This document shows, piece by piece, positions 16,919-29,600 of a DNA stretch of 64,000 bases; within the stretch, counting starts at the first letter, position 1; every line of letters begins with the position of its first letter. The position numbers and the translations under genes were made by a program. The DNA is taken from contig PGYS01000002.1 of assembly GCA_002839795.1 (NCBI GenBank), positions 11,274 through 75,273 of the forward strand, written 5' to 3'. Source of the stretch: Ignavibacteriae bacterium HGW-Ignavibacteriae-3. GTDB lineage: Bacteria > Bacteroidota > Ignavibacteria > Ignavibacteriales > Melioribacteraceae. Under the pieces are notes generated by a model, which was not told the origin of the DNA, made no database searches, and saw only the letters and a list, made by a program, of their open reading frames with translations.

Positions 16919-17770
16919 TTAAATTGAAAATGCCACTCCCAGCGATAACGAAAAAGATCTCTTCAAGCCGTCAACATTTACAGGTCGTTTTTTTAAAGGA
17001 AGGGCGATCTCACCGTTCAGACTGAAGGAATCAGAAAATTTTTTTGAAATCTTTCCAAGAAGATTTACCTGCAGCTGATCGCTTCCATCCAGATCAGCAT
17101 AAAGTGAATTTGAATTGAGAGAAGCAATCACGGAGGAATTCTGAAGTCTCTTTATTATAAGCATTTCAAGGCCAAGATTAATATTATTTGATAATTGTTC
17201 CGAATATCCGGCTTTAAACAGCAGATCATCTCCGCGCTTTAAGCCATTAATTTTATTTGCGCTCCGCCCGCCGCTCACTTGATAACCGAGCCCGACAGAA
17301 TATTTTTCGATGGAATAATCAACACCAAGAAGTATATCGTTTGAGCCTAATCCCGGCTGGTATGGCTGTGGCAGATCATTCACGTTAACTTGTCCGGTTG
17401 CCAGTTTCATTCCTATGGAAAAATTGACTGAAGATTCAGAAGATATTTCAACCGGCTGAGTGATGCCCAGAATTATATCCCCGATACCGTTTACCGAACC
17501 GAGCGGTCCGTCAATAAGATTATACGGAATTGATATGTATAGATTCGTCTCTTCGAATATGCTTATTCTGGAAGAAATAGATATCGAATTGAAATTAAGA
17601 TTGTCATCGCCGCCGCTTTTGCCAAACGAATAATTTACAGAGAGAAGATCATCGTTTTTCTCCGCACCGGGACTTTTGCCCAGGCTGCATATTCCGGCAT
17701 CAGAGCATTGCGCTTCAACAGGAATGTTTATAGCGACCACTATCAGCATTAGTACAAATATTTTTTTCAT
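16919..17770 (-). CDS. Outer-membrane beta-barrel protein (MetA/phenol-degradation-like transporter fold?)
   Basis: Signal peptide MKKIFVLMLIVVAINIPVEAQ, alternating amphipathic strands and a C-terminal aromatic end (GVAFSI). Confidence 0.55.
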   Translation of the reverse strand: MKKIFVLMLIVVAINIPVEAQCSDAGICSLGKSPGAEKNDDLLSVNYSFGKSGGDDNLNFNSISISSRISIFEETNLYISIPYNLIDGPLGSVNGIGDIILGITQPVEISSESSVNFSIGMKLATGQVNVNDLPQPYQPGLGSNDILLGVDYSIEKYSVGLGYQVSGGRSANKINGLKRGDDLLFKAGYSEQLSNNINLGLEMLIIKRLQNSSVIASLNSNSLYADLDGSDQLQVNLLGKISKKFSDSFSLNGEIALPLKKRPVNVDGLKRSFSLSLGVAFSI

Positions 17771-17836
17771 AGAATTAATCCCTAATTCAATTAAAGACGG
17801 TACGTTTTTTTTGCATCATTAAGCAAAGCCCGACAG

Positions 17837-18883
17837 TTATTTCTGAAGTAGCATTTTCTTATAAAAATTCTTGCCCCCGGCGTTTAGAACATAAAAATAA
17901 ACACCGCTGGAAAATTGAGAACCCTGCGTGCCTGCAGGCATGTTGAGAATTGAGAATTGAGAATTATACCTTCCGGCTGACTGAAATTCATTTACAAGAG
18001 TTGCGACCTCTCTTCCGAGCAGATCATAAATCTTTAATGAAACATTTCCGGGAGCGGATAATTGGTAACTTATTACTGTTTCAGGATTAAACGGGTTCGG
18101 ATAATTCTGATAAAGTATATAATCCGCAGGGATATTTTCGGCCTCTTCTTTTATTCCCGTCGCAACCATGTCTTTATAAGAAATATATTCAGACTGAATT
18201 ACTTCTTTGGTTCCGGTCCTCTGGACAAAAACAACTACTCCGAGATTTTCCCTTATCCACGCAGACTTGAGCTGAATCGATGAAGCGATTTTTTGAGAAA
18301 CGGACGTTATATTTTTTCCTCCCGCCGGGGCCGAAATCATTCTCATCACATTTTTATGATTTACAATTCCATTTCTTCCCTGATAATTAACATTTTCAAC
18401 AACTACAAGCTGCAAAACCAGATCGCCTGCGTTGAAGCCGGGTGTTACTGTCATATCCGCATCTATTTTCATGGCATCGGCAGTATGTGTACCTGATAAT
18501 TTAATTTCTAAAGGAGATTTTATTGCAATCCTTGAATCTATTACCGAAGACCATTGGCTGTAATTTCCGGGCGCGGTGCTTCCGTCAAAAAATGACTGCG
18601 GTGTGCTGCTGAATGGTCCGTAAAAACTATTTCTTGAATTCGCATCAGATACATTTGCAAGATTAAGCTGATCATCCGGATAGGGAAAATTCATATGGTA
18701 ATATATCAGCCTCACTCGTCCGGAGTTGCTGTTTAACGTCATGTACGAATCTATTGTGCCGTGCGCCGCCGGACATAATACGCAATGGGAATTAGTCAAC
18801 ACTTCAACAAGAATATTCCTGTTGTAATCCTGAGCAAAAAGGATAAATGGAAATATTAAAAACAGATAAATTGTTTTTTTCAT
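17837..18883 (-). CDS. T9SS-sorted surface protein with thioredoxin-like CxxC N-terminal domain (Omp28-related)
   Basis: Signal peptide, then EVLTNSHCVLCPAAH (CxxC). C-terminal Por secretion tail: NYPNPFNPETVISYQL...GVYFYVLNAGGKNFYKKMLLQK. Confidence 0.65.
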   Translation of the reverse strand: MKKTIYLFLIFPFILFAQDYNRNILVEVLTNSHCVLCPAAHGTIDSYMTLNSNSGRVRLIYYHMNFPYPDDQLNLANVSDANSRNSFYGPFSSTPQSFFDGSTAPGNYSQWSSVIDSRIAIKSPLEIKLSGTHTADAMKIDADMTVTPGFNAGDLVLQLVVVENVNYQGRNGIVNHKNVMRMISAPAGGKNITSVSQKIASSIQLKSAWIRENLGVVVFVQRTGTKEVIQSEYISYKDMVATGIKEEAENIPADYILYQNYPNPFNPETVISYQLSAPGNVSLKIYDLLGREVATLVNEFQSAGRYNSQFSILNMPAGTQGSQFSSGVYFYVLNAGGKNFYKKMLLQK

Positions 18884-18892
18884 TTTGGACTC

Positions 18893-20485
18893 TTAAATAT
18901 TGCTTATAAATGTTACTCTGATTCCGTCAAACGGTTGTATATATCGGCAAACACCGTTGGAGCAGATCTGTCCGCCCCGCTCTCTGCCGTAGGAAATGGA
19001 AAAATTGTGTTCGCCGGAAATACGGTATCCGCCCTCTATTGAGAACCAATCCTTCCTGCCGGAAATTTCATTTTCATTGTTTGTGAATTCATACCGCATG
19101 CCAAAAGTAAATTTTGAAATGAAGTTCCCGGTAAATGCTATTAACTGATTACTAAAGTTGTTCTGGCCGGAATTATAGTTGTCAAAAACGGATTCATGCT
19201 CGTATTGTACTGTTACCGAGTACTCTTGAGAAATACTGTGCTGTAAATAAAAAGGAAAAACTGTCGATCTAATTTTATGCGTTCCGGCATCGCCCGTAAA
19301 ATCGTTGTAAATTGTTTTGATCCTCCGGGCTATTCCGAAATTTACATCCGTCGATTCACTCAGCGAGTGTTCAACTTCCAGAAATCCTTCTCTGAAAGGA
19401 GAGTACCTGTCGTCCAACGAGGGAAGAAAATTATTTGAGCGAACCTCTTTGTCAAACTGAAAATTAGCGCGGTTGAGTTTATAAAAATCGTGTCTGCTTG
19501 ATGCGCTTGCGTTCAGATTTATATTTGTATTCTCTCCCAAAGAATAAAATATTTCAACTTGCAATCCGACCTCATCATTAAAATCAATTTCCTGCAGTGA
19601 CCTGGAAAGGAACAGATAACTATGTTCTTTCATGACAGTCGGCGGATTCTGAAAAGGAAGCATTCTTGTGGACCGCGTAAAGTCATTGCGTTCATACGGA
19701 TTTCTTTCGTCATAGCTGTAATTTTTATAATCAAATGTCAGTCCGCCACGGTCAAAGTTGTAGCCGATTAAGGAGTAAATACCAAATCCTCTTGAAGATT
19801 CCCCCGCTTTTACTCCGGTCCATTTATGGGAATAATCAATTAGCCATCTGAAATTCCCGGTATTTAGAGAGAAATAGAATTCACCGACTTCCGCCTTAAG
19901 CTCGCTGGTAATTTGGGGAAGAGGGATTGTTCCGTTTGCCCTTACAAATGAAACTCCGAATGAAAACATTTTATTCAATTTGTATTCAGTGTTGGCCCCA
20001 AAAAGCAAATATTCCTCCGTTCTCCAAAAATTTGTTGAGTCGGTAAATTCGAGCCATCCCGATAATATTGAGGCCTTTAAATCTCCGATCTCATATTTAG
20101 CTGTAATTCCATTTAGCCAAGTATCATAAGACAATCCCCGGTTTTCAAATAAATTAATTGCGAGACCTTTACCATACAGCTCCGATGAATTTCCAAGTCT
20201 TATTTCAAGATCATCGTTTCTGTAAGCAATAAATTTTCTGCTTATGCCGGTGAACCGTTTTCCAACTTCCGGCGGATCATCGTAAAGTATCCGGGCTCCC
20301 GCAGTAAAATTTGACAGAAATTTAAATTTCACTTCGGTCAAATTCTCGCGATAGACATATGAATTTTTTAAAGAGCCAATTGAACGCTCACCGCTTCCAT
20401 AACGGAATAAATTAGATACCGAAAAATCAGTCTGTGCCGCCATGGTTCCGCTCAATATTATAAAGAGAAATACTTTCAGCGCCAT
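18893..20485 (-). CDS. Porin-like outer-membrane beta-barrel protein (DUF6029-like)
   Basis: Signal peptide MALKVFLFIILSGTMAAQ, Tyr/Gly/Asn-rich alternating strands and a terminal aromatic-rich strand. Its ATG directly abuts the TlpA stop. The family name is from memory. Confidence 0.5.
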   Translation of the reverse strand: MALKVFLFIILSGTMAAQTDFSVSNLFRYGSGERSIGSLKNSYVYRENLTEVKFKFLSNFTAGARILYDDPPEVGKRFTGISRKFIAYRNDDLEIRLGNSSELYGKGLAINLFENRGLSYDTWLNGITAKYEIGDLKASILSGWLEFTDSTNFWRTEEYLLFGANTEYKLNKMFSFGVSFVRANGTIPLPQITSELKAEVGEFYFSLNTGNFRWLIDYSHKWTGVKAGESSRGFGIYSLIGYNFDRGGLTFDYKNYSYDERNPYERNDFTRSTRMLPFQNPPTVMKEHSYLFLSRSLQEIDFNDEVGLQVEIFYSLGENTNINLNASASSRHDFYKLNRANFQFDKEVRSNNFLPSLDDRYSPFREGFLEVEHSLSESTDVNFGIARRIKTIYNDFTGDAGTHKIRSTVFPFYLQHSISQEYSVTVQYEHESVFDNYNSGQNNFSNQLIAFTGNFISKFTFGMRYEFTNNENEISGRKDWFSIEGGYRISGEHNFSISYGRERGGQICSNGVCRYIQPFDGIRVTFISNI

Positions 20486-21004
20486 TTATTTGCCATAAAT
20501 GAGGGTTTTAATCTCTGCTTCGAGCTTGAATTCATCCCCCGGAAGATAGCCGATGTGCCGGGAAACGATGATCCCGTTTTTATCAATCAGAAGCGAGAAG
20601 GGAAGACTTTGGACATTAAACAAGTCTGAATATTCATTATTTGGGTCGAGGCCAATCGGATATTTAATTCCCAACGATTTGATAAATGATTTAACTTTAC
20701 CGCTGCTTCTGGGAGAATCCTGATTAATGCCCAATATACTAAAGCCGTCCGGTGAATATTTCTCATACAGCTCTTTCAGCGCTTTCATTTCCGTACGGCA
20801 CGGCTTGCACCACAATGCCCAAAAGTTTACAAGAACCGGTCCGTTAGAATAAATACTGCTCAGTTTAATTTTTTCGTCATTAATCAAGCGAACGGTAAAG
20901 TCAGTTTTACTCTGAGCAGTAATTTGCATTGTAAATATTATAACGAACAACAAAATTCCCGGACACGTTCGAAATGCTTTTTTTCCGTTTACATCATTCA
21001 ACAC
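20486..21004 (-). CDS. TlpA/ResA-family thiol:disulfide oxidoreductase (periplasmic redoxin)
   Basis: Signal/anchor segment, thioredoxin motif FWALWCKPC, and YPIGLD plus cis-Pro context LPFSLLIDKNG. GTG start overlaps the DoxX stop by 1 nt. Confidence 0.85.
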   Translation of the reverse strand: MLNDVNGKKAFRTCPGILLFVIIFTMQITAQSKTDFTVRLINDEKIKLSSIYSNGPVLVNFWALWCKPCRTEMKALKELYEKYSPDGFSILGINQDSPRSSGKVKSFIKSLGIKYPIGLDPNNEYSDLFNVQSLPFSLLIDKNGIIVSRHIGYLPGDEFKLEAEIKTLIYGK

Positions 21005-21456
21005 TAATTCCTTGACAGATATTTCTGAATAAAATTATCGGCGCTAATTTTTCCCGCTCCGTTAATGACTAAAGTCAATAACATAATAAAATAGTATAAG
21101 GGAATTTCAAATCCATTTTCCGCCGCCTCGAAACCGTTATGAAGATGAACCGTCACGATAGCAACGACCATAGTTATGATCAGAGGAATCGAAATTATGC
21201 GGGTTGCAAATCCAAGCGTCAGAAGAACGACTCCGGCGGCTTCTGCCGAGGCGGCAAGATAAGTATTAAGTAACGGCGCGGGTATTCCCAGCGAGCCGAA
21301 CCATTCGGACACGCCTTCGATATTAGACCACTTAACGGCGGCTGTTGTGTAAAAGCCGTATGCCAGAACAAGACGCATCATTAATAAGGGAATATCCTTA
21401 AGCCCTGTTAAAAGCTCCACAACGAAATTATATTTTTGTACAAGTTTCGCGATCAT
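21004..21456 (-). CDS. DoxX family membrane protein
   Basis: Four hydrophobic helices and LRLVLAYGFY...AGKISAD, typical of DoxX. ATGA overlap with the DUF2063 stop. Confidence 0.8.
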   Translation of the reverse strand: MIAKLVQKYNFVVELLTGLKDIPLLMMRLVLAYGFYTTAAVKWSNIEGVSEWFGSLGIPAPLLNTYLAASAEAAGVVLLTLGFATRIISIPLIITMVVAIVTVHLHNGFEAAENGFEIPLYYFIMLLTLVINGAGKISADNFIQKYLSRN

Positions 21457-22211
21457 ATATAAAATCCCGGAATAAATTTATTAGCCTTCAATTCTTCAAG
21501 GAACGGAAGCGTGTTTTCGAAAAGCGCTTTTTCATTCACGCCGAATACTTGCGCCGCCTCTTTAAGTATTTTAATCAGCGGTGTATTTTCAATTTCAACT
21601 TTTTCTATAAGCCATGAGAAATAAACCGATAAATTCATAAACCTAACTTTTCCGCTTTCTTTTTCTCTAAATAATAATACGTAGTACTCTCCGCGATCAT
21701 TTTCCGTAATTCCTTTTGGATTTTTTAAATGAACGGGGTAATTCAACTGCAAGATTTTGTATTCAGGGTTAACCGCAATGACCTCGCTCAGCCATCCTCC
21801 ATCGGTTTTTGATTCAGGATATGCAATATCCGGCATCATATATATTTCCACCTCTGTCCATTCGAAATTCAGAAGATCCTCTAAAAAAATATATTTTTCT
21901 TTTATTTCAAGGCCGGTCTCTTCCACAAAGCGGTAAAATTCGCTTGGCATTTTCCAAATTGAGGTTGATTGACACTTATAATTCGATAAGAAAGCATCAA
22001 CCACGCCGTACCACTCTTCCTGCGAAAGCAAATCACATGTTAATGGAAACGCCGACTGAAGAGTGTCGTCTATAACGCCATGAATCAGTCTGCGGTAATG
22101 ATGGACACGGTTCTCTGTCAACCCGTCTATCTTCGGCGGATCTCCCGTTCTGCAATAATCTGCGAGCCTGCTCTGTTGTGTGTGTGTGTAGTTATGCAAG
22201 TGAGTGTTCAT
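21453..22211 (-). CDS. DUF2063-family RiPP maturase partner (HvfC/BufC/MbnC-role protein)
   Basis: YRRLIHGVIDDTLQSAFPLT...F...SIWKMPSEFYRFVEE matches my recollection of the DUF2063 N-terminal domain. It always pairs with DUF692. Start moved to the ATG at 22211 (20-nt overlap with the MNIO gene). Confidence 0.75.
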   Translation of the reverse strand: MNTHLHNYTHTQQSRLADYCRTGDPPKIDGLTENRVHHYRRLIHGVIDDTLQSAFPLTCDLLSQEEWYGVVDAFLSNYKCQSTSIWKMPSEFYRFVEETGLEIKEKYIFLEDLLNFEWTEVEIYMMPDIAYPESKTDGGWLSEVIAVNPEYKILQLNYPVHLKNPKGITENDRGEYYVLLFREKESGKVRFMNLSVYFSWLIEKVEIENTPLIKILKEAAQVFGVNEKALFENTLPFLEELKANKFIPGFYI

Positions 22212-23034
22212 AGTCCCACGCCTTTGTACAGATATTTTCAAGTCTGTTTAATTCATATTGAAGTTCATTTAATTCGGGAATGTTGAAATCCCTTTCAAGA
22301 AGAACAGGAACTGTTTTGGGAAGTTTATGAGCGGTAAATTCAAATAGTTCATAAACCGGATCGATAATTGGTTCACCGTGAGTATCTATTATTAAATCCG
22401 GAGCAACCTGCTCGTGACCCGCCATATGAATATATTCAACTTTGTCCAAAGGCAGTTTTTCAATGAATTCTTTTGAATCATAATTATGATTGAAAGCATT
22501 AACATAGATATTGTTTACATCGAGCAACAAATTGCAATCGGCCTCTTTAACTATAGAACTTATAAATTCAACTTCGCTCATTTCCGCCGCAACCGGCGTA
22601 TAATAAGAAACAATTTCGATGGCAATCTTTCTTTCCAGAAAATCCTGAACTGATTTAATACGTTGAGATATATGCTTCACCGCATCCCACCGGAACGGGA
22701 TTGGAAGAAGATCATACAGATGAGCATTATCACATTTAGAATAGCTCAGGTGTTCGGAATAAATCTGAACATTATGTTCGTTGAGGAAATATTTAACCTT
22801 CTTCAGAAAATCCCAGTCAAGTTCATCCGGAGTTCCGATTGAAAGAGAGAGTCCGTGTGTATAAATGGGATACTGCGCGGCAATTTTATTAAAAACTTTT
22901 TTCCAGTAACCGCCGATCTCCATCCAATTCTCCGGCGCGACCTCAAGAAAGGCCGGGGTTAAATCTTTTCCTTCCAGAAATTCTTCAGCAAAATCTTTTC
23001 TGAATCCGATCCCGACATGTTTATTTCTTTCCAT
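22192..23034 (-). CDS. DUF692 / MNIO (multinuclear non-haem iron oxidase; MbnB/HvfB/BufB family)
   Basis: Collinear DUF692 motifs: VGIGFRKDF, LEVAPENW, YPIYTHGLSLSIG, SEHLSY, LYDLLPIPF, LLLDVNNIYVNAFNHNYD, YIHMAGH, IIDTHGEPI and LLERDFNIP. Confidence 0.9.
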   Translation of the reverse strand: MERNKHVGIGFRKDFAEEFLEGKDLTPAFLEVAPENWMEIGGYWKKVFNKIAAQYPIYTHGLSLSIGTPDELDWDFLKKVKYFLNEHNVQIYSEHLSYSKCDNAHLYDLLPIPFRWDAVKHISQRIKSVQDFLERKIAIEIVSYYTPVAAEMSEVEFISSIVKEADCNLLLDVNNIYVNAFNHNYDSKEFIEKLPLDKVEYIHMAGHEQVAPDLIIDTHGEPIIDPVYELFEFTAHKLPKTVPVLLERDFNIPELNELQYELNRLENICTKAWDYEHSLA

Positions 23035-23100
23035 TTCAATTCCTCTTAAGCAAAATCCCGCCTTAGGATTAATCCGCCGGCGGGATTAATTTTGATATTA

Positions 23101-23565
23101 TTATTTCTTCTCTGCCGGTTTGGATTCTTTTTTCTCTTTCATTTCCTTCATCTCTTTCTTATCCATAGATTTGGCGTCTTTCTTTTTTTCGCCGCATTTT
23201 CCTTCTCCGCACTTACCGTCTTTTGCTTTGGAATCCATCGGCTTGGTAGCTTTTGCGTCGTTCATTTTTTTATCGCCGCATTTACCTTCCCCGCACTTTC
23301 CATCTTTAGCTTTTGAATCTTTCGCCTTGGGGTCATCGGCTTTCGGGGATTTGCTATCGCTCTTATTTCCGCATTTCATTTCAAGCGTTCGCTCCGGGGA
23401 TGTATTAAGTAAGGATGCCCTCAGCTCTGCGCCCGAGCCCAAATTGTTAAAATCAAAAAGATTTGCAGCATTTAAAGTGCTTGGGGCGCCGGCGCCGAAA
23501 ATCGCTCCGGCGATAATTGAGCCTGTTACAAGTATGCGTTTTGTGTTTTTATAGTGGTTTTGCAT
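23101..23565 (-). CDS. Secreted Lys-rich precursor peptide with five KCG motifs (HvfA-like RiPP metallophore precursor candidate)
   Basis: Sec-type signal peptide (...GAGAPSTLNA/ANLF). Every Cys sits in K-C-G: MKCGN plus two copies of SKAKDGKCGEGKCG[D/E]KK. It lies immediately upstream of the DUF692/DUF2063 pair on the same strand. Confidence 0.75.
   Translation of the reverse strand: MQNHYKNTKRILVTGSIIAGAIFGAGAPSTLNAANLFDFNNLGSGAELRASLLNTSPERTLEMKCGNKSDSKSPKADDPKAKDSKAKDGKCGEGKCGDKKMNDAKATKPMDSKAKDGKCGEGKCGEKKKDAKSMDKKEMKEMKEKKESKPAEKK
23189..23319 (-). repeat. Imperfect 47-bp direct repeat (period 84 bp) encoding the duplicated DGKCGEGKCG module
   Basis: 23189-23235 tcgccgcattttccttctccgcacttaccgtcttttgctttggaatc versus 23273-23319 tcgccgcatttaccttccccgcactttccatctttagcttttgaatc. 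Confidence 0.8.
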
Positions 23566-23653
23566 GGTAGAACCTCTTATTAAGTGAAGTATTGATAATT
23601 GATTGACACTTATAAAGACGTGGTGTCCGCGATAACCTTACAAGAGGCTGAAA

Positions 23654-23911
23654 TTAATTTTTATCGGCGATGGAATTGATAAGAATGTGCATTTTTTCCA
23701 TTTCGGAATCGGAAAAAGAGTCCCGGGAGTGTAAATTTATTATTTGAAGAGACAGAAATTTCTGCTGTTTGTTAAAAAGCCTGCAGAATTTACAAATTAG
23801 CAGATGAATGAAAAGTTTGATTTTCTCTCCTAAAGGAAGGTTCTTTTCCTCTTTTCGAACAGAAATGAAAGATGCCTCTTCACAGGTGATTAAAATTTTA
23901 GATGATTTCAT
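23654..23911 (-). CDS. Small zinc-finger (HxxxCxxC) anti-sigma factor
   Basis: 85-aa product MKSSKILITCEE...IHLLICKFCRLF carries an H-x3-C-x2-C motif. Its ATG (23911-23909) overlaps the sigma TGA (23910-23908) as ATGA. The track ORF start at 23977 lies inside the sigma gene and is unlikely. Confidence 0.6.
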   Translation of the reverse strand: MKSSKILITCEEASFISVRKEEKNLPLGEKIKLFIHLLICKFCRLFNKQQKFLSLQIINLHSRDSFSDSEMEKMHILINSIADKN

Positions 23912-24477
23912 TTTATAAACCATTTTTCTTCTATACAGCTCCTCAACTGCAGTTTGGAGCGATGAATTATTACCCAATAGTTAGACGAAGTTATCTTTAA
24001 TTCCTTACAGATCTCATGCGAATCTTTTTCATCAAGATATTTCATTGAAAATACGATTCTCATAATCTCGGACAGGCGTTCCATACATTTATTAAGAATC
24101 TCCATAAATTCTTCTGACTCAAGTGTTGAATTATAGTCCACGCCCCAATCCTTTGGGCCCCTGCTTTTAATCCAGTGACTCTCTTCATCAAAAAATCCGC
24201 CTTCATCATTCAAGGTATCAATCTGATCCAATATTGAAGCGGTTTTTTTTCTGTAATGGTCGATTATTTTGTTTTTGAGAATCATATACAGCCAGTTCTT
24301 TTCAGAAATTTCCCCCTTGAACGTTTCAAGATTTTTGAGCGCGGCCAGAAAAGTCTCCTGAACCAGATCTTTTGCGGAATCTTTATCATTAACTCTGATT
24401 ACGGCAAAGCGGAAAAGCGGATCCGCATAAGTTTTAACCCAAAGCTTGGGGTTGAGAATTTTTTTTTCAGTACTCAA
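23908..24477 (-). CDS. ECF-type RNA polymerase sigma-70 family factor
   Basis: Region 2 DLVQETFLAALKNLETFKG...NWLYMILKNKIIDHYRKK and region 4 HEICKELKITSSNYWVIIHRSKLQLRSCIEE. Confidence 0.9.
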   Translation of the reverse strand: MSTEKKILNPKLWVKTYADPLFRFAVIRVNDKDSAKDLVQETFLAALKNLETFKGEISEKNWLYMILKNKIIDHYRKKTASILDQIDTLNDEGGFFDEESHWIKSRGPKDWGVDYNSTLESEEFMEILNKCMERLSEIMRIVFSMKYLDEKDSHEICKELKITSSNYWVIIHRSKLQLRSCIEEKWFIK

Positions 24478-24482
24478 TGCTG

Positions 24483-25244
24483 TTATTTATCCTTAAATGC
24501 CTTAATATACCTTTTCGTGAACTCGCTCAAGACAAGATTACCGCTTATTTCAGCACGCTCTTCAAGAAGTTTATCCCAATTTTCAGTTCCGGCCCAGAAT
24601 ATTTTTTTCATTTGGGCGATCGCTTCCGGATTGCAGGCCGTCAGCTTCTTCACAAGAGCTGAAACCGCTTCATCAAGATCGTGATTATTGGCAAAAACTT
24701 TTGTGAATAAACCATTTTGTTTAGCCCAGAAAGCGTCATGCCATTCCGCATCTATCGACATTGTGATAAAAGCAGTATTCCCGATCTTTCTTTCAACTGC
24801 GGGTCCGACAACAAATGGACCGATTCCCAACATTAGTTCGCTAAGTCTTACAGAGGCGACGCTAGAGGCAAGCGTATAATCAGCGGCGGCGATAATTCCC
24901 ACTCCTCCTCCGACTGCCTTTCCCTGAACTCGCGCGACAATAAATTTAGGACATTTGCGCATTGCATTTATCAACCGGGCAAAACCCATAAAAAATTCTT
25001 TTCCGGTTTTAAAATCCTTTATGCGAAGCAGTTCATCAAATGACGCGCCCGCGCAGAATGTTTTTTCACCTTCGCTTCTTATTACAATTACATGCGCGCG
25101 CTTATCGGTCGCAAAATCATTTATTGCTTCCGTGATTTTTTTGATTGTTGGAGATGGCAGCGAGTTGCTTTTGGGGTGAGAAAATGAAATCGTAGCAATT
25201 CCATTTATCATGCTTGTAGTAACGGTTCCGCTTTTTTCCATATG
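24483..25244 (-). CDS. Enoyl-CoA hydratase/isomerase (crotonase) family protein
   Basis: Crotonase motifs FCAGASFDEL and RVQGKAVGGGVGIIAAADY. Start moved to the ATG at 25244, preceded by AAGGAG with 6-nt spacing. The stop lies 5 nt upstream of the ECF sigma start. Confidence 0.85.
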   Translation of the reverse strand, partial: HMEKSGTVTTSMINGIATISFSHPKSNSLPSPTIKKITEAINDFATDKRAHVIVIRSEGEKTFCAGASFDELLRIKDFKTGKEFFMGFARLINAMRKCPKFIVARVQGKAVGGGVGIIAAADYTLASSVASVRLSELMLGIGPFVVGPAVERKIGNTAFITMSIDAEWHDAFWAKQNGLFTKVFANNHDLDEAVSALVKKLTACNPEAIAQMKKIFWAGTENWDKLLEERAEISGNLVLSEFTKRYIKAFKDK

Positions 25245-25596
25245 AATCTCCTTTTTGTTCATCATTTTCTCAGAGACGCCAAGCATCGACGACAAATAAT
25301 AAAACACACTTAAAAAACAAATTCTCTAAAAAAATTACTAAACAGATTTGGAAAACCAAAGAGAAAAAGAACTATTTATCATTCCGCTAAGTGGATTTCT
25401 GAGCGATCTATGCCATAAAAAAGGAGGGGGATTATTTTAAGCTATAACGCAAGGCGTTATCGGGCCCGCGATCACAATTTTCGTTTATTCCGTAAATTCC
25501 ACTCCGATGACATTGCCTGAAAAAATTATAATTAACATGTTCATTGAGATCCGCGGAGAGTCCGCAGGTGATTAATATTATTTTCCGGGTGAAACA

Positions 25597-26585
25597 TTAT
25601 ACTTTAAATACTTCAAGCAGTCGGTTCTTGAATTGTTCTTCATAAATTTTTCCATAATTGACAGTCTCTATGGCTCGGGGAAGAATTTTAACAAACTTTG
25701 TTTTTTCATTCTCCCAATTTTCCAATATGGATTCCGCAATTGTTGATCCGGTATGGAACTGGTGATTAACCGGATATTTGAAAATCAGATCTTCGTCGGA
25801 CAGTTTTAGCTCGTCTATCTTTACATATTCCGAATTCAAATTTTTCTCAACTTGGGAGCGGTTATAATTGCCGGCAGAACCTCTTCGCTGATTCCCTCAG
25901 CAAAATGCTGCTCGAATTTTACCGAGTGTGGATTTATTTTTTGCTTCGGTCTAAAAATAAATTTCGGTTTTCATTTTTGGCAGTAAAAATAGACAGATCA
26001 ATATTTTTTTCTAAGCTCCGGATCCCGGGTCGCGATTCCAACCGGACATGTATTTAAGTGGCACTGCCTTGCCATGACGCAGCCTACAGATACAAGCGCC
26101 GATGTACCGAAATCGAATTCTTCGGCACCAAGCATAGCCGCAACAACAACATCTCTTCCGCTTTTCAGTCCGCCGTCCACGCGCAAAGTAACCATATTCC
26201 TTAAACTGTTTTCGGTTAAGGTCCTGTGAACTTCAAAGAGACCGAGCTCCCACGGAAGACCGGTGTGCTTCAGAGAACCGAGCGGACTTGCTCCCGTTCC
26301 GCCGTCGTTTCCGCTTATTAATATAATTTCCGCGCCTGCTTTTACGACTCCAGAAGCAATAATTCCTATTCCAGGCTGGGAAACAAGCTTAACACAGATA
26401 TTCGCTCTCGGGTTTACCTGTTTAAGATCATAGATCAGCTGGGCAAGATCTTCTGTACTATATATACCATGGTGAGAGGGAGGCGAAATCAACGGAACGC
26501 CGGGTGTAGTATGCCCGCTGTTTGCGATTGACAATGTAACTTTTTCCCTCGGAAGCTGGCCGCCTTCACCCCGTCTGGCCCCCAC
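25597..26585 (-). pseudogene. gltB: Decayed glutamate synthase large-subunit (gltB-like) relic: FMN-domain fragment plus extreme C-terminal fragment
   Basis: 25998-26585 encodes only GEGGQLP...[24 protein letters not shown]...[10 protein letters not shown]...GLPWELGL...[21 protein letters not shown] then a stop. 25597-25839 encodes the C-terminal tail (HTGSTIAESILENWENEKTKFVKILP). The amidotransferase domain, central domain, first half of the FMN barrel and most of the GXGXG domain are absent. Confidence 0.6.
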
Positions 26586-26614
26586 ACCCGGTCCGAAATT
26601 AGATTTTGTAAGAA

Positions 26615-29600
26615 CTACCCATTTTCTCCGGTAAGGCGTGCAATCTGCAAAAGATAAAATCTTAAAAGGTCCTGCTGCTTTGGCGAAAGCGCCTGTTCTT
26701 CAATCTTTATTATTCTTTCCACTTCCTTTATTGCCCTAACTATATTTATGGGTACTTCAACCATTCCCTCGGAAACCGAGGATAGATATTCAAATGCGGC
26801 AGCAAGAAATTGACGCATATTATCATCGCCGGACATTCGGAAAAAACTGCTTATCTCAGTGGAGAATTTTAATTTTTTAGGCGCAAATGGTAATTCTTTT
26901 GTGCTGCTATTCGCCGATAACGAATGCAGAGCAACCGCCAATTCGGAGAAGCTCGCAACTCTCTGAAATACGGGCTGTTCAAGAAGATCCCAGCTTTTTT
27001 CTCTCCACATTTTAATATGAACCGGCACGACAAGAAGATTTTTCATAGCATCAATCCATTGCGGATCGACTTTACCTTTTATTGATGAAAGAACTGCTTC
27101 CGGATCCGTATTGAACAAATTTGACTGAAGAAGAACGGCTAGATCGGGGCGAAGGGTCGGCAATAGATCAGGAATAAATTTTCCGTTCTCAAAAAAATCG
27201 GTTACATCCAGCCCGTGTCTTCTCATTAATTCACGCTGGAAAAGATAAAGGTACGTGTTCATTGAATCGATATCTTCACGCAATGCCACAAAAGCAGAAT
27301 TGGCGGCAGGAAATGCTTTTTCCAATTTATTCAGATAGATCAGATCATAATCATGATAAATTCTTAAGGAATGTAAAATTTCATAAACGGGCAGGTTGGG
27401 CAGAATCCTGTCTTCTATTAATGCAACGGCTTCCCCTTCCGAAAAATCTTTTTGGGAAAAAATATTCAGGGCTCTGAATAAACCCGTTGTTAACTGATTA
27501 ATTCCGAGCACAGCCGTCTGAGATTGATTATGAGCAATTGCCCTTAGCATGCTTCCGTATCGGGAAAAAGGAATTGTCTCCGAAATTTTTTCGAGAATTT
27601 TCTGTCCAGCGCTTTCGGAGACTCCCTGTCCGGGACGTATGGTCGGCCTATCCCTCAGCGGCGGTGTGGTTCTTGCAATGAAATATGAAATTATATGAAT
27701 TCCAAAAACGTCTTCTTCCCGTCCGTACAGTATTTGTCTGAAATTCTCAGTTACGATAGAAAGAAATTCATCAAACAGAATATCTTTTCTTCCGATTGTA
27801 AGTCTTTCCAGTTCCTGAAGGCCGCGCGACCGGAATTGCAGACGTGTTTCAACCAGAGGTTCCCCGGCACGGATAATTTCCGTCTCGTAAAATTTTTGTG
27901 ATTCTTTCGCATGAAAAAGAATCTGAGCCAATTCTCCGGCGGGAATATTCCGGAAGTTTTCGGAAAGACCGCTTTGGAAAGTACGCAGATCCCCTCCGGC
28001 AAAAATTCCCATCAATGGAGTCGTGGCATACCCGGTGCTTTTCTTTGTAGATTCCTTTAAGTGAGTTGAAAATCTTCTTTGTGAGTCGGTGGAATTTGAA
28101 AACGCCGCAGATCCCGCGACGGCAGAATAATAACCTCCCTGACGCTGCATCGGTTCCCCGCTTCCCATTTTCATTCTTACTGTTCCGCTCAATCCTTTTT
28201 CAGCGAGCCAGGAAGTCAGATCATATTTTGCTTTTTTGTAAAGCATCATTCCGGCAGCCTGCCCAACTTGCTGACTAAGGTCCGATCCGGCGACGAATAC
28301 TTCACAAATAATTTCAAGGAATCGTTCACCTGTGTCTTGGTTTAGCCTTCTGCTCTGCAGCGAATGCTCCCAGATTTTATTAAGATAATTATTAAGTCCT
28401 TCAACAGTATCCAGCTCTTCAAATAGCGGAATCAGCCATAGCGGCGGATTTTCTTTGTTTAAATTTTTACGCTGACCCTGTTCCCTTCTCGACCTGATTT
28501 TCCTGTCGAGGGCGATCAAAGCCTCAGGTTTTGTTGACATGCTTACCTGCAGCGCCAGGATCATGCCGGGATTATCATACTTGCCTGCAATTTCATTAAT
28601 CTCATTTATATTATGAACGGTGGTATCCATCGCGAACTGATCCTGCGAGGTAATCATTTTCTGATGAATCCGGGGTGTTATTATAAATCTTTTCATCAAG
28701 TCTTTATAAAGACACGCCTCAAGCAGCAGTTCTTTGTTGCCGATATTCTTTTCAATCTCAGGCAGAAGAGAGTTTAATGTTTTCCTGATTTTCTTGTTCA
28801 GCGAGAAATAGTATTCGAGAGCTTTTCTTCTCTGCTGGCGAAGCTCGATCATTTTTCGTTCAAGACGGTCATTGTGATGCCACAATGAAGTAAGCGGATC
28901 CCGGGCAACATGCAGTTTCATTCCGAGCTGTCTGAAACGGCCGGGTTTAAGGTTGAATGGAAGAACGCCCCTGTATCTTTTTTCAAGCTGATGGGTAAGT
29001 TCCGTAATCTCTTTGAGCAATTTAGAGAAGCGTAAATTGGTTTCGGGAAATTTTTCTATTTCCCCAAGCAGAAAAGAATCAATTTTAATTGAACTTTCTT
29101 GTTTGAGAATAAGATTCAGCAATTTTGACTGCCGGGAAATATTTTCTATTACAACCGACGCAACAAGACTGTGCCCCTGACCCGAAGGTCGGTTGCTTCC
29201 GTCCCAATCTCCCCAGAACGAGTGAAAGACCTGATATGATTTATCAGAATAAAGTCCGGTATAATTTTCAGCCGCTATGAATGATTTTAAGTCTGTCAAA
29301 AGTTCCGCAGGTTCATCACCCGATACAATAGCAACATTCAATCCTAAAAATTCTTTAACCAATTCAGCGGAAGATTTTTTAAGAATAGACTCGGTAATGT
29401 TTTTATTCCTGATTGCGAGGTCGATCATCTCTTCGAAGAGCAGTTCCAGTTTAAGCGAGTACATCTGCGTAGGATGGACGGTACGGTCATATAATCTTTC
29501 TTTAAAAACTTTCTTTCTTCTTTCAAGATTATCTTTGTAAAATTCATTTTGCAGCATTCCGATAAGATTTTTTCCCTTATCAGCCAGGGATTTTTCCATC

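What the first reader, a model, noticed from the sequence alone, without database searches (positions are those of the whole stretch)
23101..23565. Precursor candidate: every cysteine in a KCG triplet, tandem DGKCGEGKCG modules, extremely Lys-rich mature region
Seen: a signal peptide (MQNHYKNTKRILVTGSIIAGAIFGAGAPSTLNA/ANLF). It is followed by a conserved-looking LFDFNNLGSGAELRASLL segment. Then come MKCGN and two copies of SKAKDGKCGEGKCG[D/E]KK spaced 28 aa apart. These copies are encoded by a 47-bp imperfect direct repeat (23189-23235 and 23273-23319). The tail is KKEMKEMKEKKESKPAEKK. After the leader region there are no aromatic residues, and all five Cys are K-C-G. Established (from memory): EGKCG-type repeats are the hallmark of HvfA-class substrates, where Cys is converted to an oxazolone/thioamide Cu-binding pair. 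Bufferin precursors (DUF2282) look different. Inference: an HvfA-like core sits in a bufferin-like (DoxX-containing) operon, a hybrid arrangement. The module duplication suggests repeat number can evolve.
Basis: partly seen in the sequence, partly recalled or inferred. Interest (0 to 1): 0.8.

Follow-up and report, generated by a model that had tools for sequence, protein, structure and literature searches.

The report
Ordinary HvfA-type copper-peptide precursor gene
This small gene encodes the precursor of a known kind of enzyme-modified, copper-binding secreted peptide (the HvfA/oxazolin or "captophorin" family), sitting in that family's standard operon in an Ignavibacteria genome, so it is a routine new member and not a hybrid or new system.

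Summary
A 154-aa ORF on the minus strand (23101-23565) has a signal-peptide-like N-terminus. All five Cys are K-C-G, and two SKAKDGKCGEGKCG modules lie 28 aa apart, encoded by a 64-nt direct repeat (84% identical).

The HvfA-like reading is supported. NCBIfam's HvfA-family domain model scores just above its cutoff. The downstream genes are HvfB (MNIO), HvfC, and HvfX (DoxX).

The "hybrid with a bufferin-like DoxX operon" reading is wrong. DoxX/HvfX belongs to the canonical hvf operon of Haemophilus and Neisseria, and is reported in 67.8% of published MNIO-PME1 clusters.

In 78 of 80 related Ignavibacteriota/Bacteroidota loci, a homologous precursor lies just upstream of hvfB. These carry 0-4 double modules, so repeat number does vary.

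The adjacent ECF sigma and ZAS anti-sigma genes, and a GTAAGGTT-N13-CGTCT promoter upstream of hvfA, match the Neisseria sigma-E system that controls the same operon.

Verdict: a new member of a known kind, of low interest. One side observation: a second copy of the promoter lies inside the sigma gene's coding sequence.

The parts
23908..24477 (-). ECF sigma factor gene (TIGR02943-like; same kind as Neisseria sigma-E and H. influenzae RpoE2)
   Evidence: NCBIfam TIGR02943 scores 153.5 bits (cutoff 162.2). TIGR02937 sigma70-ECF scores 85.8 (cutoff 42.9). Pfam finds Sigma70_r2 and r4_2. It is present upstream of hvfA in 69/80 related loci.
23983..24008 (-). Second copy of the sigma-E-type promoter motif (GTAAGGAAT-N12-CGTCTAAC), embedded in the region 4.2 codons C-K-E-L-K-I-T-S-S-N of the sigma gene, about 72 nt upstream of the likely anti-sigma start
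   Evidence: It is one of only two matches in the 64 kb window (0.08 expected). In 60 sigma orthologues, the Lys codon is AAG in 60/60 and the Cys codon is TGT in 58/60. CGTC is kept in 54/60 through NCG codons, although that residue varies among S, T, A and P.
23654..23911 (-). Small soluble ZAS-type anti-sigma factor. The likely true start is M23 of the listed ORF 23654-23977, with its ATG overlapping the sigma stop codon as ATGA, giving 85 aa.
   Evidence: The ZAS motif C32-x25-H58-x3-C62-x2-C65 is present. Counting from M23, the positions C10/H36/C40/C43 are close to RsrA's C11/H37/C41/C44 (RsrA numbering from PMC2893595). NF052368 anti-sigma scores 40.5 bits, below its cutoff of 50. The sigma-to-anti-sigma gap is -4.
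23616..23641 (-). Sigma-E-type promoter upstream of hvfA (GTAAGGTT-N13-CGTCT, continuing TTA), ending about 50 nt before the ATG
   Evidence: It matches the Neisseria sigma-E consensus of -35 GTMAGBWTT, N12-13, -10 CGTCTAAH (PMC2893595). The same motif lies 32-63 nt upstream of hvfA in 36/78 relatives under a strict pattern, with one-base variants visible in many others.
23467..23565 (-). hvfA codons 1-33: Sec-type signal peptide (MQNHYKNTKRILVTGSIIAGAIFGAGAPSTLNA)
   Evidence: Charge, hydrophobic core and L-N-A site. Conserved in relatives. In HvfA and bufferins the signal peptide also aids recognition by the maturase (bioRxiv 10.64898/2026.07.17.739211).
23371..23466 (-). hvfA codons 34-65: conserved post-signal box (N)LFxYxxLGSGxELRxxLL, followed by ...LEMKC65G, the invariant first Cys
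   Evidence: L42, G43, L52, C65 and G66 are invariant among 25 homologues. An LGSGxELR-like box is present in 73/77 locus precursors. It is partly shared with FonA (VFQASDLGAG) and absent from H. influenzae HvfA. Residues 45-54 form the only helix predicted after the signal peptide.
23266..23316 (-). hvfA module 1: SKAKDGKCGEGKCGDKK (residues 84-100; Cys91 and Cys96)
   Evidence: The DGKCG and EGKCG 5-mers are substrates of FonBC in vitro (PMC13097082).
23182..23232 (-). hvfA module 2: SKAKDGKCGEGKCGEKK (residues 112-128; Cys119 and Cys124)
   Evidence: The NF050137 match covers residues 110-127. K118 to G125 are invariant or nearly invariant among homologues.
23101..23565 (-). Whole hvfA-like precursor gene (154 aa)
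   Evidence: It is 100% identical to GenBank 'hypothetical protein CVV24_00475' of Ignavibacteriae bacterium HGW-Ignavibacteriae-3.
23054..23087 (-). Stem-loop in the 66-nt hvfA-hvfB spacer (AAUCCCGCC...GGCGGGAUU, then UUUGCUU). Proposed as a leaky terminator or transcript stabiliser.
   Evidence: The fold energy is -19.3 kcal/mol, but the z-score is only -1.8. An 8-12 bp hairpin with unrelated sequence follows the hvfA stop in at least 12 of 13 relatives examined. The function is inferred.
22192..23034 (-). hvfB: MNIO (DUF692) maturase
   Evidence: NF003818 (HvfB family) scores 384.3 against a 360 cutoff. BufB scores 270 against 310, and MbnB 47.9 against 325. PF05114 gives E = 1.4e-96. PDB 3BWW gives E = 3e-71. 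The motifs HGLSLS, SEHLS, IEIVSYY, LDVNNIY, IHMAGH, DTHG and LLERD are all present.
21453..22241 (-). hvfC: DUF2063 + RRE partner protein (PME type 1)
   Evidence: PF09836 scores 50.6 and PF22106 (NGO1945_C) scores 31.5, both above their cutoffs. NF050145 HvfC scores 115.6, below its 142 cutoff. PDB 3DEE gives E = 1.3e-5.
21004..21456 (-). hvfX: DoxX-family membrane protein
   Evidence: NF050144 (HvfX family) scores 125.6 against an 80 cutoff. PF07681 DoxX also matches. It overlaps hvfC by 4 nt and is present in 57/80 related loci.
20486..21004 (-). TlpA/ResA-like periplasmic thioredoxin (WCKPC motif), overlapping hvfX by 1 nt. A lineage-specific add-on.
   Evidence: Among the 80 loci it is found only in L003.
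18893..20485 (-). DUF6029 porin-like outer-membrane protein, directly abutting the thioredoxin gene. A lineage-specific add-on.
   Evidence: PF19494 scores 135.8 bits. The gap is 0 nt. It is shared only with L003.

Best explanation
The ORF is the precursor (HvfA-type, 'Lys-Cys captophorin' / Buf_EGKCG-oxazolin family) of a ribosomally made, enzyme-modified copper-binding peptide. It sits in the family's normal gene set in an Ignavibacteria genome: sigma, anti-sigma, hvfA, hvfB, hvfC, hvfX.

Proposed sequence of events:
1. Oxidative or thiol stress (or copper stress) inactivates the small zinc-binding anti-sigma factor. This step is inferred.
2. The freed ECF sigma factor transcribes hvfA-hvfX from the GTAAGGTT-N13-CGTCT promoter. 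The motif is shown here; its function is inferred from Neisseria and Haemophilus.
3. A hairpin after hvfA may keep precursor mRNA in excess over enzyme mRNA. This is inferred.
4. In the cytoplasm, the HvfB-HvfC heterodimer recognises the signal peptide and N-terminal box. Using O2 and a diiron centre, it converts the Cys of the KCG units to 5-thiooxazoles, with a 4 Da loss each. This rests on homology to HvfBC and FonBC.
5. The four Cys in the two DGKCGEGKCG modules are the confident sites. The lone Cys65 is uncertain.
6. The peptide is then exported by Sec and cleaved after Ala33. This is inferred.
7. The disordered, Lys-rich 121-residue product binds Cu(I) in the periplasm, about one Cu per pair of heterocycles. 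This rests on homology.

The roles of DoxX/HvfX, and of the extra TlpA-like thioredoxin and porin genes, are unknown.
For: Family models:
- The precursor reaches the NF050137 cutoff.
- HvfB and HvfX are above their cutoffs.
- HvfC is above both Pfam cutoffs.
- All 25 aligned homologues hit the HvfA models.

Synteny:
- A homologous precursor lies 50-334 nt upstream of hvfB in 78/80 loci.
- HvfC is present in 80/80 loci, the sigma gene in 69/80, and HvfX in 57/80.

Sequence conservation:
- Across the relatives, 337 of 394 post-signal Cys are K-C-G and 389 of 394 are x-C-G.
- The HvfB metal-binding motifs are intact, and the closest solved structure is 3BWW.
- The core is predicted to be disordered.

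Biochemistry from the literature:
- HvfBC modifies each Cys of AEGKCGEGKCG, with a 4 Da loss, a 302 nm chromophore and Cu(I) binding (PMC11252979).
- The modification is 5-thiooxazole (PMC13097082; 10.64898/2026.06.05.730506).
- A DGKCG variant is fully processed by FonBC.

Regulation:
- The promoter matches the Neisseria sigma-E consensus.
- In H. influenzae the hvf genes depend on RpoE2 and are induced by HOCl (PMC7907618).
Against: - Nothing here is experimental for this organism, which is known only as a metagenome-assembled genome.
- The domain-model score is only marginally above its cutoff (20.9 against 19.5).
- The H. influenzae HvfA equivalog model is far below its cutoff (27.4 against 95), and HvfC is below its NCBIfam cutoff.
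- The two modules are 28 aa apart, not the 17-residue repeats described for the beta-helix type.
- The signal peptide was judged heuristically.
- FonBC did not modify a substrate with a single repeat, so modification of Cys65 is doubtful.
- The inducing signal (copper or oxidants) is unknown.
Confidence: 0.82

Rival explanations
1. The peptide is modified, but to oxazolone/thioamide pairs as in methanobactin, not to 5-thiooxazoles.
For: This was the original assignment for H. influenzae oxazolin (PMC11252979). NCBIfam names still say 'oxazolone/thioamide'. The two products are isobaric and spectrally similar.
Against: Two independent groups reassigned HvfA products to 5-thiooxazole by alkylation-assisted HMBC NMR and comparison with methanobactin. 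The window's maturase scores as HvfB (384 bits) and only 47.9 bits on MbnB.
Confidence: 0.06
2. It is a hybrid system: an HvfA-like core recruited into a bufferin (DUF2282-type, DoxX-containing) operon.
For: HvfB and BufB enzymes are close relatives that do not separate in published similarity networks (PMC12452194). BufB scores 270 bits on the window enzyme. Sigma and anti-sigma genes are reported in Buf1 clusters.
Against: DoxX is part of the canonical hvf and ngo operons. HvfB and HvfX are above their own cutoffs while BufB is below its cutoff. The precursor has no DUF2282 hit. The anti-sigma is a ZAS protein as in Neisseria and Haemophilus, not the NrsF type of Buf1 clusters. The same layout recurs in dozens of genomes.
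Confidence: 0.03
3. The ORF encodes an ordinary secreted, Lys-rich, low-complexity protein whose cysteines stay as thiols or disulfides, and the neighbouring MNIO acts on another substrate.
For: The core is low-complexity and predicted to be disordered. JGI annotates relatives as 'uncharacterized low-complexity protein'. The family-model score is marginal.
Against: The x-C-G context is conserved in 389/394 Cys while the spacers drift freely. The position immediately upstream of hvfB is fixed in 78/80 loci. No other Cys-rich small ORF with two or more KCG exists in the window.
Confidence: 0.07
4. The real gene is the antisense ORF 23120-23554 (+), and the KCG ORF is a mirror artefact.
For: A 144-aa stop-free frame exists on the plus strand.
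Against: It has no family hits. Only 13 of 77 relatives keep any stop-free antisense frame over the gene. Conservation follows the minus-strand reading frame, covering the signal peptide, box and Cys-Gly. The RBS, promoter and operon polarity are all on the minus strand. Lys codons AAA/AAG read as TTT/CTT on the other strand, which explains the open frame.
Confidence: 0.01

Closest known systems
Oxazolin precursor HvfA and the hvfX-hvfA-hvfB-hvfC operon of nontypeable Haemophilus influenzae (PMC11252979; 10.64898/2026.06.05.730506)
   Same: Both have a Sec signal peptide and tandem xGKCGEGKCG modules whose Cys are the modification sites. Both have an HvfB-family MNIO, a DUF2063/RRE partner and a DoxX-family HvfX gene. 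Both are controlled by an ECF sigma with a small ZAS anti-sigma (RpoE2/HrsE, PMC7907618).
   Different: The window protein has two modules plus a lone KCG, against three modules. It has no N-terminal Cys-x4-Cys disulfide pair. It carries a conserved LFxYxxLGSGxELR box that H. influenzae HvfA lacks. It is longer and more Lys-rich, with a Lys/Glu tail. Its gene order is different, and sigma/anti-sigma lie in cis. It falls far below the HvfA equivalog cutoff (27.4 against 95).
Fontiphorin precursor FonA and the 'Lys-Cys captophorin' class (Fontimonas thermophila; PMC13097082)
   Same: Both have EGKCG/DGKCG 5-mers in pairs. The N-terminal box is partly shared (F-x3-DLGAG). The class catalogue already counts Bacteroidota (173) and Ignavibacteriota (2) clusters, DoxX in 67.8% of clusters and a TIGR02943 sigma in 8.6%.
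   Different: FonA has seven Cys in closely packed double and triple repeats. The window protein has long Lys/Asp/Ser spacers (28-aa period). This locus was not itself described.
Neisseria sigma-E operon NMB2140-2145 (doxX, ngoA/gonophorin precursor, ngoB, ngoC, rpoE, mseR) (PMC2893595; PMC3240639)
   Same: The six gene families are the same. The anti-sigma is a ZAS type with RsrA-like Cys/His spacing. The promoter consensus is the same: GTAAGGTT, N12-13, CGTCTAA.
   Different: In Neisseria, one autoregulated promoter lies upstream of doxX, and sigma/anti-sigma are the last genes. Here sigma and anti-sigma come first. One promoter copy precedes hvfA and the other lies inside the sigma coding sequence, ahead of the anti-sigma gene.
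Bufferins (Buf1/DUF2282 and Buf2; Caulobacter and Bordetella; PMC11626156, PMC12452194)
   Same: Both are signal-peptide-bearing precursors with a closely related MNIO, a DUF2063 partner and often DoxX. Both carry Cys-derived thiooxazoles that bind copper in the periplasm.
   Different: The window precursor has no DUF2282 domain. BufB is below its cutoff. Bufferins are folded with ordered Cu sites, whereas this core is repetitive and predicted to be disordered.

Membership tests
HvfA family / Buf_EGKCG-oxazolin / Lys-Cys captophorin precursors | Repeated (E/D)GKCG 5-mers, typically as xGKCGEGKCG pairs | tested here: met
   There are two DGKCGEGKCG modules plus one MKCGN unit. NF050137 (KCGExKCG_twice) scores 20.9 bits against a 19.5 cutoff, which is marginal.
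HvfA family / Buf_EGKCG-oxazolin / Lys-Cys captophorin precursors | N-terminal Sec signal peptide in place of a classical RiPP leader | tested here: met
   This is a heuristic test only. The N-terminus has a basic n-region, a hydrophobic core at residues 11-26 and an L-N-A site. A helix is predicted at residues 8-21. The layout is conserved in homologues. SignalP was not available.
HvfA family / Buf_EGKCG-oxazolin / Lys-Cys captophorin precursors | Encoded next to an HvfB-type MNIO and a DUF2063/RRE (PME type 1) partner | tested here: met
   HvfB scores 384.3 against a 360 cutoff. DUF2063 and NGO1945_C are above the Pfam cutoffs. HvfC NF050145 scores 115.6, below its 142 cutoff. The arrangement recurs in 78/80 loci.
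HvfA family / Buf_EGKCG-oxazolin / Lys-Cys captophorin precursors | Cys converted to 5-thiooxazole (4 Da loss each, absorbance near 302-305 nm) and Cu(I) binding | not testable with these tools
   This needs expression, mass spectrometry, UV-vis, NMR and metal titration.
HvfA proper (NCBIfam equivalog NF050188, H. influenzae-type oxazolin) | Full-length match above the equivalog cutoff (95 bits) | tested here: not met
   The score is 27.4 bits, and only residues 63-107 align to profile positions 22-65. The protein is a family member, not an orthologue-level equivalent.
Bufferin Buf1 | DUF2282 (PF10048) domain in the precursor, and a BufB equivalog maturase | tested here: not met
   The precursor has no Pfam hit. 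NF050167 BufB scores 270 against a 310 cutoff.
Methanobactin | An MbnA-type leader/core peptide with MbnB/MbnC | tested here: not met
   TIGR04159 MbnB scores 47.9 against a 325 cutoff. The precursor has a signal peptide and is 154 aa long.
Sigma-E/MseR-type (RpoE2/HrsE) ECF-ZAS regulatory module | A small cytoplasmic anti-sigma with the C/H-x23-26-H-x3-C-x2-C motif, encoded directly after the sigma gene | tested here: met
   The motif C32-x25-H58-x3-C62-x2-C65 is present. The anti-sigma ATG overlaps the sigma stop codon.
Sigma-E/MseR-type (RpoE2/HrsE) ECF-ZAS regulatory module | Target promoter GTMAGBWTT, N12-13, CGTCTAAH | tested here: met
   GTAAGGTT-N13-CGTCTTTA precedes hvfA, and GTAAGGAAT-N12-CGTCTAAC lies within the sigma gene. 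These are the only two matches in 64 kb, against 0.08 expected. The consensus is from PMC2893595. Promoter activity was not tested.

The most novel reading that the evidence does not exclude
The Ignavibacteriota/Bacteroidota hvf loci may form a distinct sub-type of the captophorin system, with three distinguishing features. First, the precursor carries a dedicated post-signal recognition box (LFxYxxLGSGxELR...LExxCG). Second, the regulatory circuit differs from Neisseria: the sigma factor does not amplify itself, but drives its own anti-sigma from a promoter written into the sigma gene's region 4.2 codons, giving negative feedback and a pulse-like response. Third, in this genome and one relative, the operon is extended by a TlpA-like thioredoxin, a DUF6029 porin and a T9SS-sorted Omp28-like protein, which could move copper or the peptide across the outer membrane.
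Probability: 0.2. Interest if true: 0.4.

Novelty: new member of a known kind. Interest (0 to 1): 0.2.

Why it matters
The practical value is small. The GenBank 'hypothetical protein CVV24_00475' can be re-annotated as an HvfA-family thiooxazole metallophore precursor. The locus adds an Ignavibacteria example to a class known mostly from Pseudomonadota.

It also shows that the sigma-E/ZAS regulatory module and its promoter consensus travel with the hvf genes across phyla. That supports the view that these peptides belong to an ancient oxidative or copper stress response.

The set of 78 natural variants, with 0-4 double modules and varied first-Cys contexts, could guide substrate-scope experiments. 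It does not reveal a new system or new chemistry.

Tried and rejected
- **Structure prediction.** AlphaFold2 on a 25-sequence alignment gave a disordered model (pLDDT 50, pTM 0.17). No fold search was run because its matches would be meaningless. The published beta-helix model for 17-residue-repeat members is not reproduced here.
- **Generic promoter and terminator scan.** The sigma-70 promoter and terminator scan found no more sites than shuffled sequence does. The informative promoter came only from aligning upstream regions of relatives.
- **Hairpin after hvfA.** On its own it is not significant (z = -1.8). It is retained only because hairpins recur at the same place in relatives.
- **Other libraries.** Rfam found nothing credible in 18000-26000. 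PADLOC and Pfam gave no hits on the precursor or on the antisense ORFs.
- **Rejected readings.** The bufferin/DUF2282 and methanobactin readings were rejected on family scores. The antisense-gene reading was rejected on lack of conservation.
- **Autoregulatory promoter.** A search upstream of the sigma gene found none, even with a relaxed pattern.
Full report
**Observation**

The ORF is real and lies on the minus strand at 23101-23565 (154 aa).
- It has an ATG start, with AAGAGG 7 nt upstream.
- There are five Cys, all K-C-G, and no aromatic residue after F39.
- Five of five Cys in K-C-G never arose in 200,000 shuffles of the mature region.
- The DNA repeat extends to 64 nt at 84% identity (23183-23246 and 23267-23330).
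- The signal peptide could be judged only heuristically, from its basic n-region, its hydrophobic core at residues 11-26 and its L-N-A site. AlphaFold2 puts a helix at residues 8-21, and the layout is conserved in homologues.

**What it is**

NCBIfam places the protein in the HvfA family. The domain model NF050137 'KCGExKCG_twice' scores 20.9 bits against a 19.5 cutoff. The H. influenzae equivalog NF050188 scores only 27.4 against 95.

The genes downstream on the same strand are:
- an HvfB-family MNIO (384.3 bits against a 360 cutoff; PF05114, E = 1.4e-96);
- a DUF2063/NGO1945_C partner (above both Pfam cutoffs; HvfC model 115.6 against 142);
- an HvfX-family DoxX protein (125.6 against 80).

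The MNIO is closest to PDB 3BWW, the Histophilus homologue of HvfB (E = 3e-71). It keeps the usual His/Glu/Asp/Asn metal motifs. The partner protein matches 3DEE.

The window comes from Ignavibacteriae bacterium HGW-Ignavibacteriae-3, where the protein is deposited as 'hypothetical protein CVV24_00475'.

**Relatives**

A homologue search gave 864 proteins with E <= 1e-3.
- The named ones among the top 120 come from Ignavibacteriota or Bacteroidota metagenome-assembled genomes.
- One is already named 'HvfA family oxazolone/thioamide-modified RiPP metallophore' by NCBI.

Eighty genomic loci encoding HvfB relatives were fetched.
- 78 have a homologous precursor ORF 50-334 nt upstream of hvfB.
- HvfC is present in 80 loci, an ECF sigma gene in 69, and HvfX in 57.

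The precursors share a signal peptide, a box LFxYxxLGSGxELRxxLL (73/77), a first ...LExxCG cysteine, and a variable number of KCG units.
- Double modules range from 0 to 4 and Cys from 2 to 9.
- Close relatives at 68-73% identity differ by whole or half modules.
- Of 394 post-signal Cys, 337 are K-C-G and 389 are x-C-G.
- The residue before the first Cys varies among K, A, S, N and T. 'Every Cys is KCG' is therefore a trait of this clade and not of the family.

The inference that module number evolves is borne out. The literature had already noted variable repeat numbers, from 31 to 506 residues and up to 58 Cys (PMC12452194).

DoxX is not a bufferin-specific marker.
- The original hvf operon of H. 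influenzae is hvfX(DoxX)-hvfA-hvfB-hvfC (PMC11252979; 10.64898/2026.06.05.730506).
- The Neisseria sigma-E operon contains the same genes (PMC2893595; PMC3240639).
- DoxX occurs in 67.8% of catalogued MNIO-PME1 clusters (PMC13097082 supplement).
- Most EGKCG clusters consist of precursor, MNIO, DUF2063 and DoxX genes (PMC12452194).

So there is no hybrid.

The chemistry has also been revised. EGKCG cysteines become 5-thiooxazoles, not oxazolone/thioamide pairs (PMC13097082; 10.64898/2026.06.05.730506; 10.64898/2026.07.17.739211).

The published catalogue already counts 173 Bacteroidota and 2 Ignavibacteriota clusters, and lists a TIGR02943 sigma factor in 8.6% of clusters.

**Mechanism**

By homology, HvfB-HvfC should oxidise the KCG cysteines in the cytoplasm.
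- The signal peptide and N-terminal region aid recognition. HvfBC prefers full-length HvfA.
- The DGKCG and EGKCG units present here are both accepted by FonBC. A small residue after Cys is required, and a single repeat was not processed in vitro.
- The four module cysteines are therefore confident sites, and Cys65 is uncertain.
- Cys65 aligns with the first Cys of a full double module in FonA and in some Flavobacteriales relatives. It looks like the remnant of a half-lost module.

After Sec export and cleavage, the 121-residue product would bind Cu(I) through pairs of heterocycles, as shown for oxazolin. It has pI 9.3 and 31 Lys, and is predicted to be disordered.

The post-signal box is partly shared with FonA (VFQASDLGAG) and absent from H. 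influenzae HvfA. Its role as the HvfC docking site is my inference.

**Regulation**

Upstream lie an ECF sigma gene (23908-24477) and a small anti-sigma gene.
- The anti-sigma has the ZAS motif C32-x25-H58-x3-C62-x2-C65.
- Its likely start is M23, whose ATG overlaps the sigma stop codon. This gives RsrA-like spacing.

Aligning the hvfA upstream regions of relatives revealed TGTAAGGTT-N13-CGTCT about 50 nt before the ATG.
- The pattern TGTAAGG-N14-20-CGTC occurs exactly twice in the 64-kb window, against 0.08 expected.
- It occurs in 59 of 80 loci, and 32 of them have two copies.
- It equals the Neisseria sigma-E consensus GTMAGBWTT, N12-13, CGTCTAAH, which was derived from the promoters of the doxX operon and msrAB (PMC2893595).
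- In H. influenzae the doxX-hvf genes are RpoE2-dependent and induced by HOCl (PMC7907618).

The regulatory logic is therefore the known one, with sigma and anti-sigma placed in cis.

**Side observations**

- *Embedded promoter.* The second promoter copy (23983-24008) lies inside the sigma gene, in the codons for C-K-E-L-K-I-T-S-S-N. Across 60 orthologues the Lys codon is AAG in 60/60 and the Cys codon TGT in 58/60. The residue preceding the Ser varies among S, T, A and P but uses an NCG codon in 54/60, which keeps CGTC. This indicates selection on the DNA itself. It fits a promoter for the anti-sigma gene embedded in coding sequence. No such motif precedes the sigma gene.
- *Hairpin.* A hairpin follows the hvfA stop codon here (-19.3 kcal/mol, z = -1.8) and in at least 12 of 13 relatives examined, where the sequences are unrelated. 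It may be a leaky terminator or a stabiliser.
- *Add-on genes.* A TlpA-like thioredoxin, a DUF6029 porin, an Omp28-like protein with a T9SS sorting domain and a further predicted outer-membrane protein follow hvfX, with gaps of -1, 0, 9 and 66 nt. This block is shared only with locus L003.

**Rivals**

- The antisense ORF 23120-23554 has no family hits. Only 13 of 77 relatives keep a stop-free antisense frame. It mirrors the runs of Lys codons.
- The bufferin and methanobactin assignments fail their defining models.

**Verdict**

The 'hybrid' claim is wrong and the recalled chemistry is out of date. The locus is an unremarkable new member of the HvfA/captophorin family, in a phylum where such clusters are already catalogued.

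Noticed in passing
window 23983-24008 (-), inside the ECF sigma gene 23908-24477: A second copy of the sigma-E-type promoter (GTAAGGAAT-N12-CGTCTAAC) is written into the region 4.2 codons of the sigma gene, about 72 nt upstream of the anti-sigma start. In 60 orthologues the synonymous positions are fixed: AAG in 60/60, TGT in 58/60, and an NCG codon in 54/60 despite S/T/A/P changes. This implies a promoter embedded in coding sequence that would give negative feedback through the anti-sigma. No such motif lies upstream of the sigma gene.
   Followed up: partly
window 23054-23087 (-), hvfA-hvfB spacer; also L001-L019 spacers: A stem-loop directly follows the precursor stop codon. It is weak statistically in the window (z = -1.8). 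An 8-12 bp hairpin with unrelated sequence sits at the same place in at least 12 of 13 relatives examined, which suggests a conserved attenuator or mRNA-stabilising element between the precursor and enzyme genes.
   Followed up: partly
window 16919-21004 (-); L003 8070-12046: hvfX is followed, with gaps of -1, 0, 9 and 66 nt, by four genes: a TlpA/ResA-like thioredoxin (WCKPC), a DUF6029 porin, an Omp28-like protein with a T9SS C-terminal sorting domain, and a 283-aa predicted outer-membrane protein (weak Phenol_MetA_deg hit). The whole block is shared only with locus L003 among the 80 relatives, and is absent from the two closest loci.
   Followed up: partly
window 23120-23554 (+) and 23092-23316 (+): Two stop-free antisense ORFs (144 and 74 aa, Phe/Leu/Ser-rich) mirror the Lys-rich precursor gene. 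They have no family hits, and the open antisense frame is kept in only 13 of 77 relatives. They are by-products of AAA/AAG codon runs.
   Followed up: yes
window 25597-32233 (-): A 195-aa ORF (25998-26585) matches only positions 146-338 of the 369-position glutamate synthase FMN domain. It starts 30 nt after the stop of a 1872-aa ORF (26615-32233) whose only Pfam hit is a class I/II aminotransferase domain at residues 443-745. An 80-aa ORF with no hits follows at 25597-25839. This may be a disrupted or frameshifted giant gene, a pseudogene, or an assembly error.
   Followed up: no
window 22192-23034 (-), hvfB: Compared with the solved Histophilus homologue 3BWW, the window HvfB lacks about 20 residues between the IHxAGH and DTHG metal motifs. 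Query residues 206-209 bridge chain positions 210-230.
   Followed up: no
L012 5755-5868; L025; L074: In a few related loci the precursor is truncated (37 aa in L012, whose upstream sequence still reads KCG-like codons in another frame), or it was not detected by the simple ORF rule. These may be frameshifts or assembly errors, or divergent precursors.
   Followed up: no
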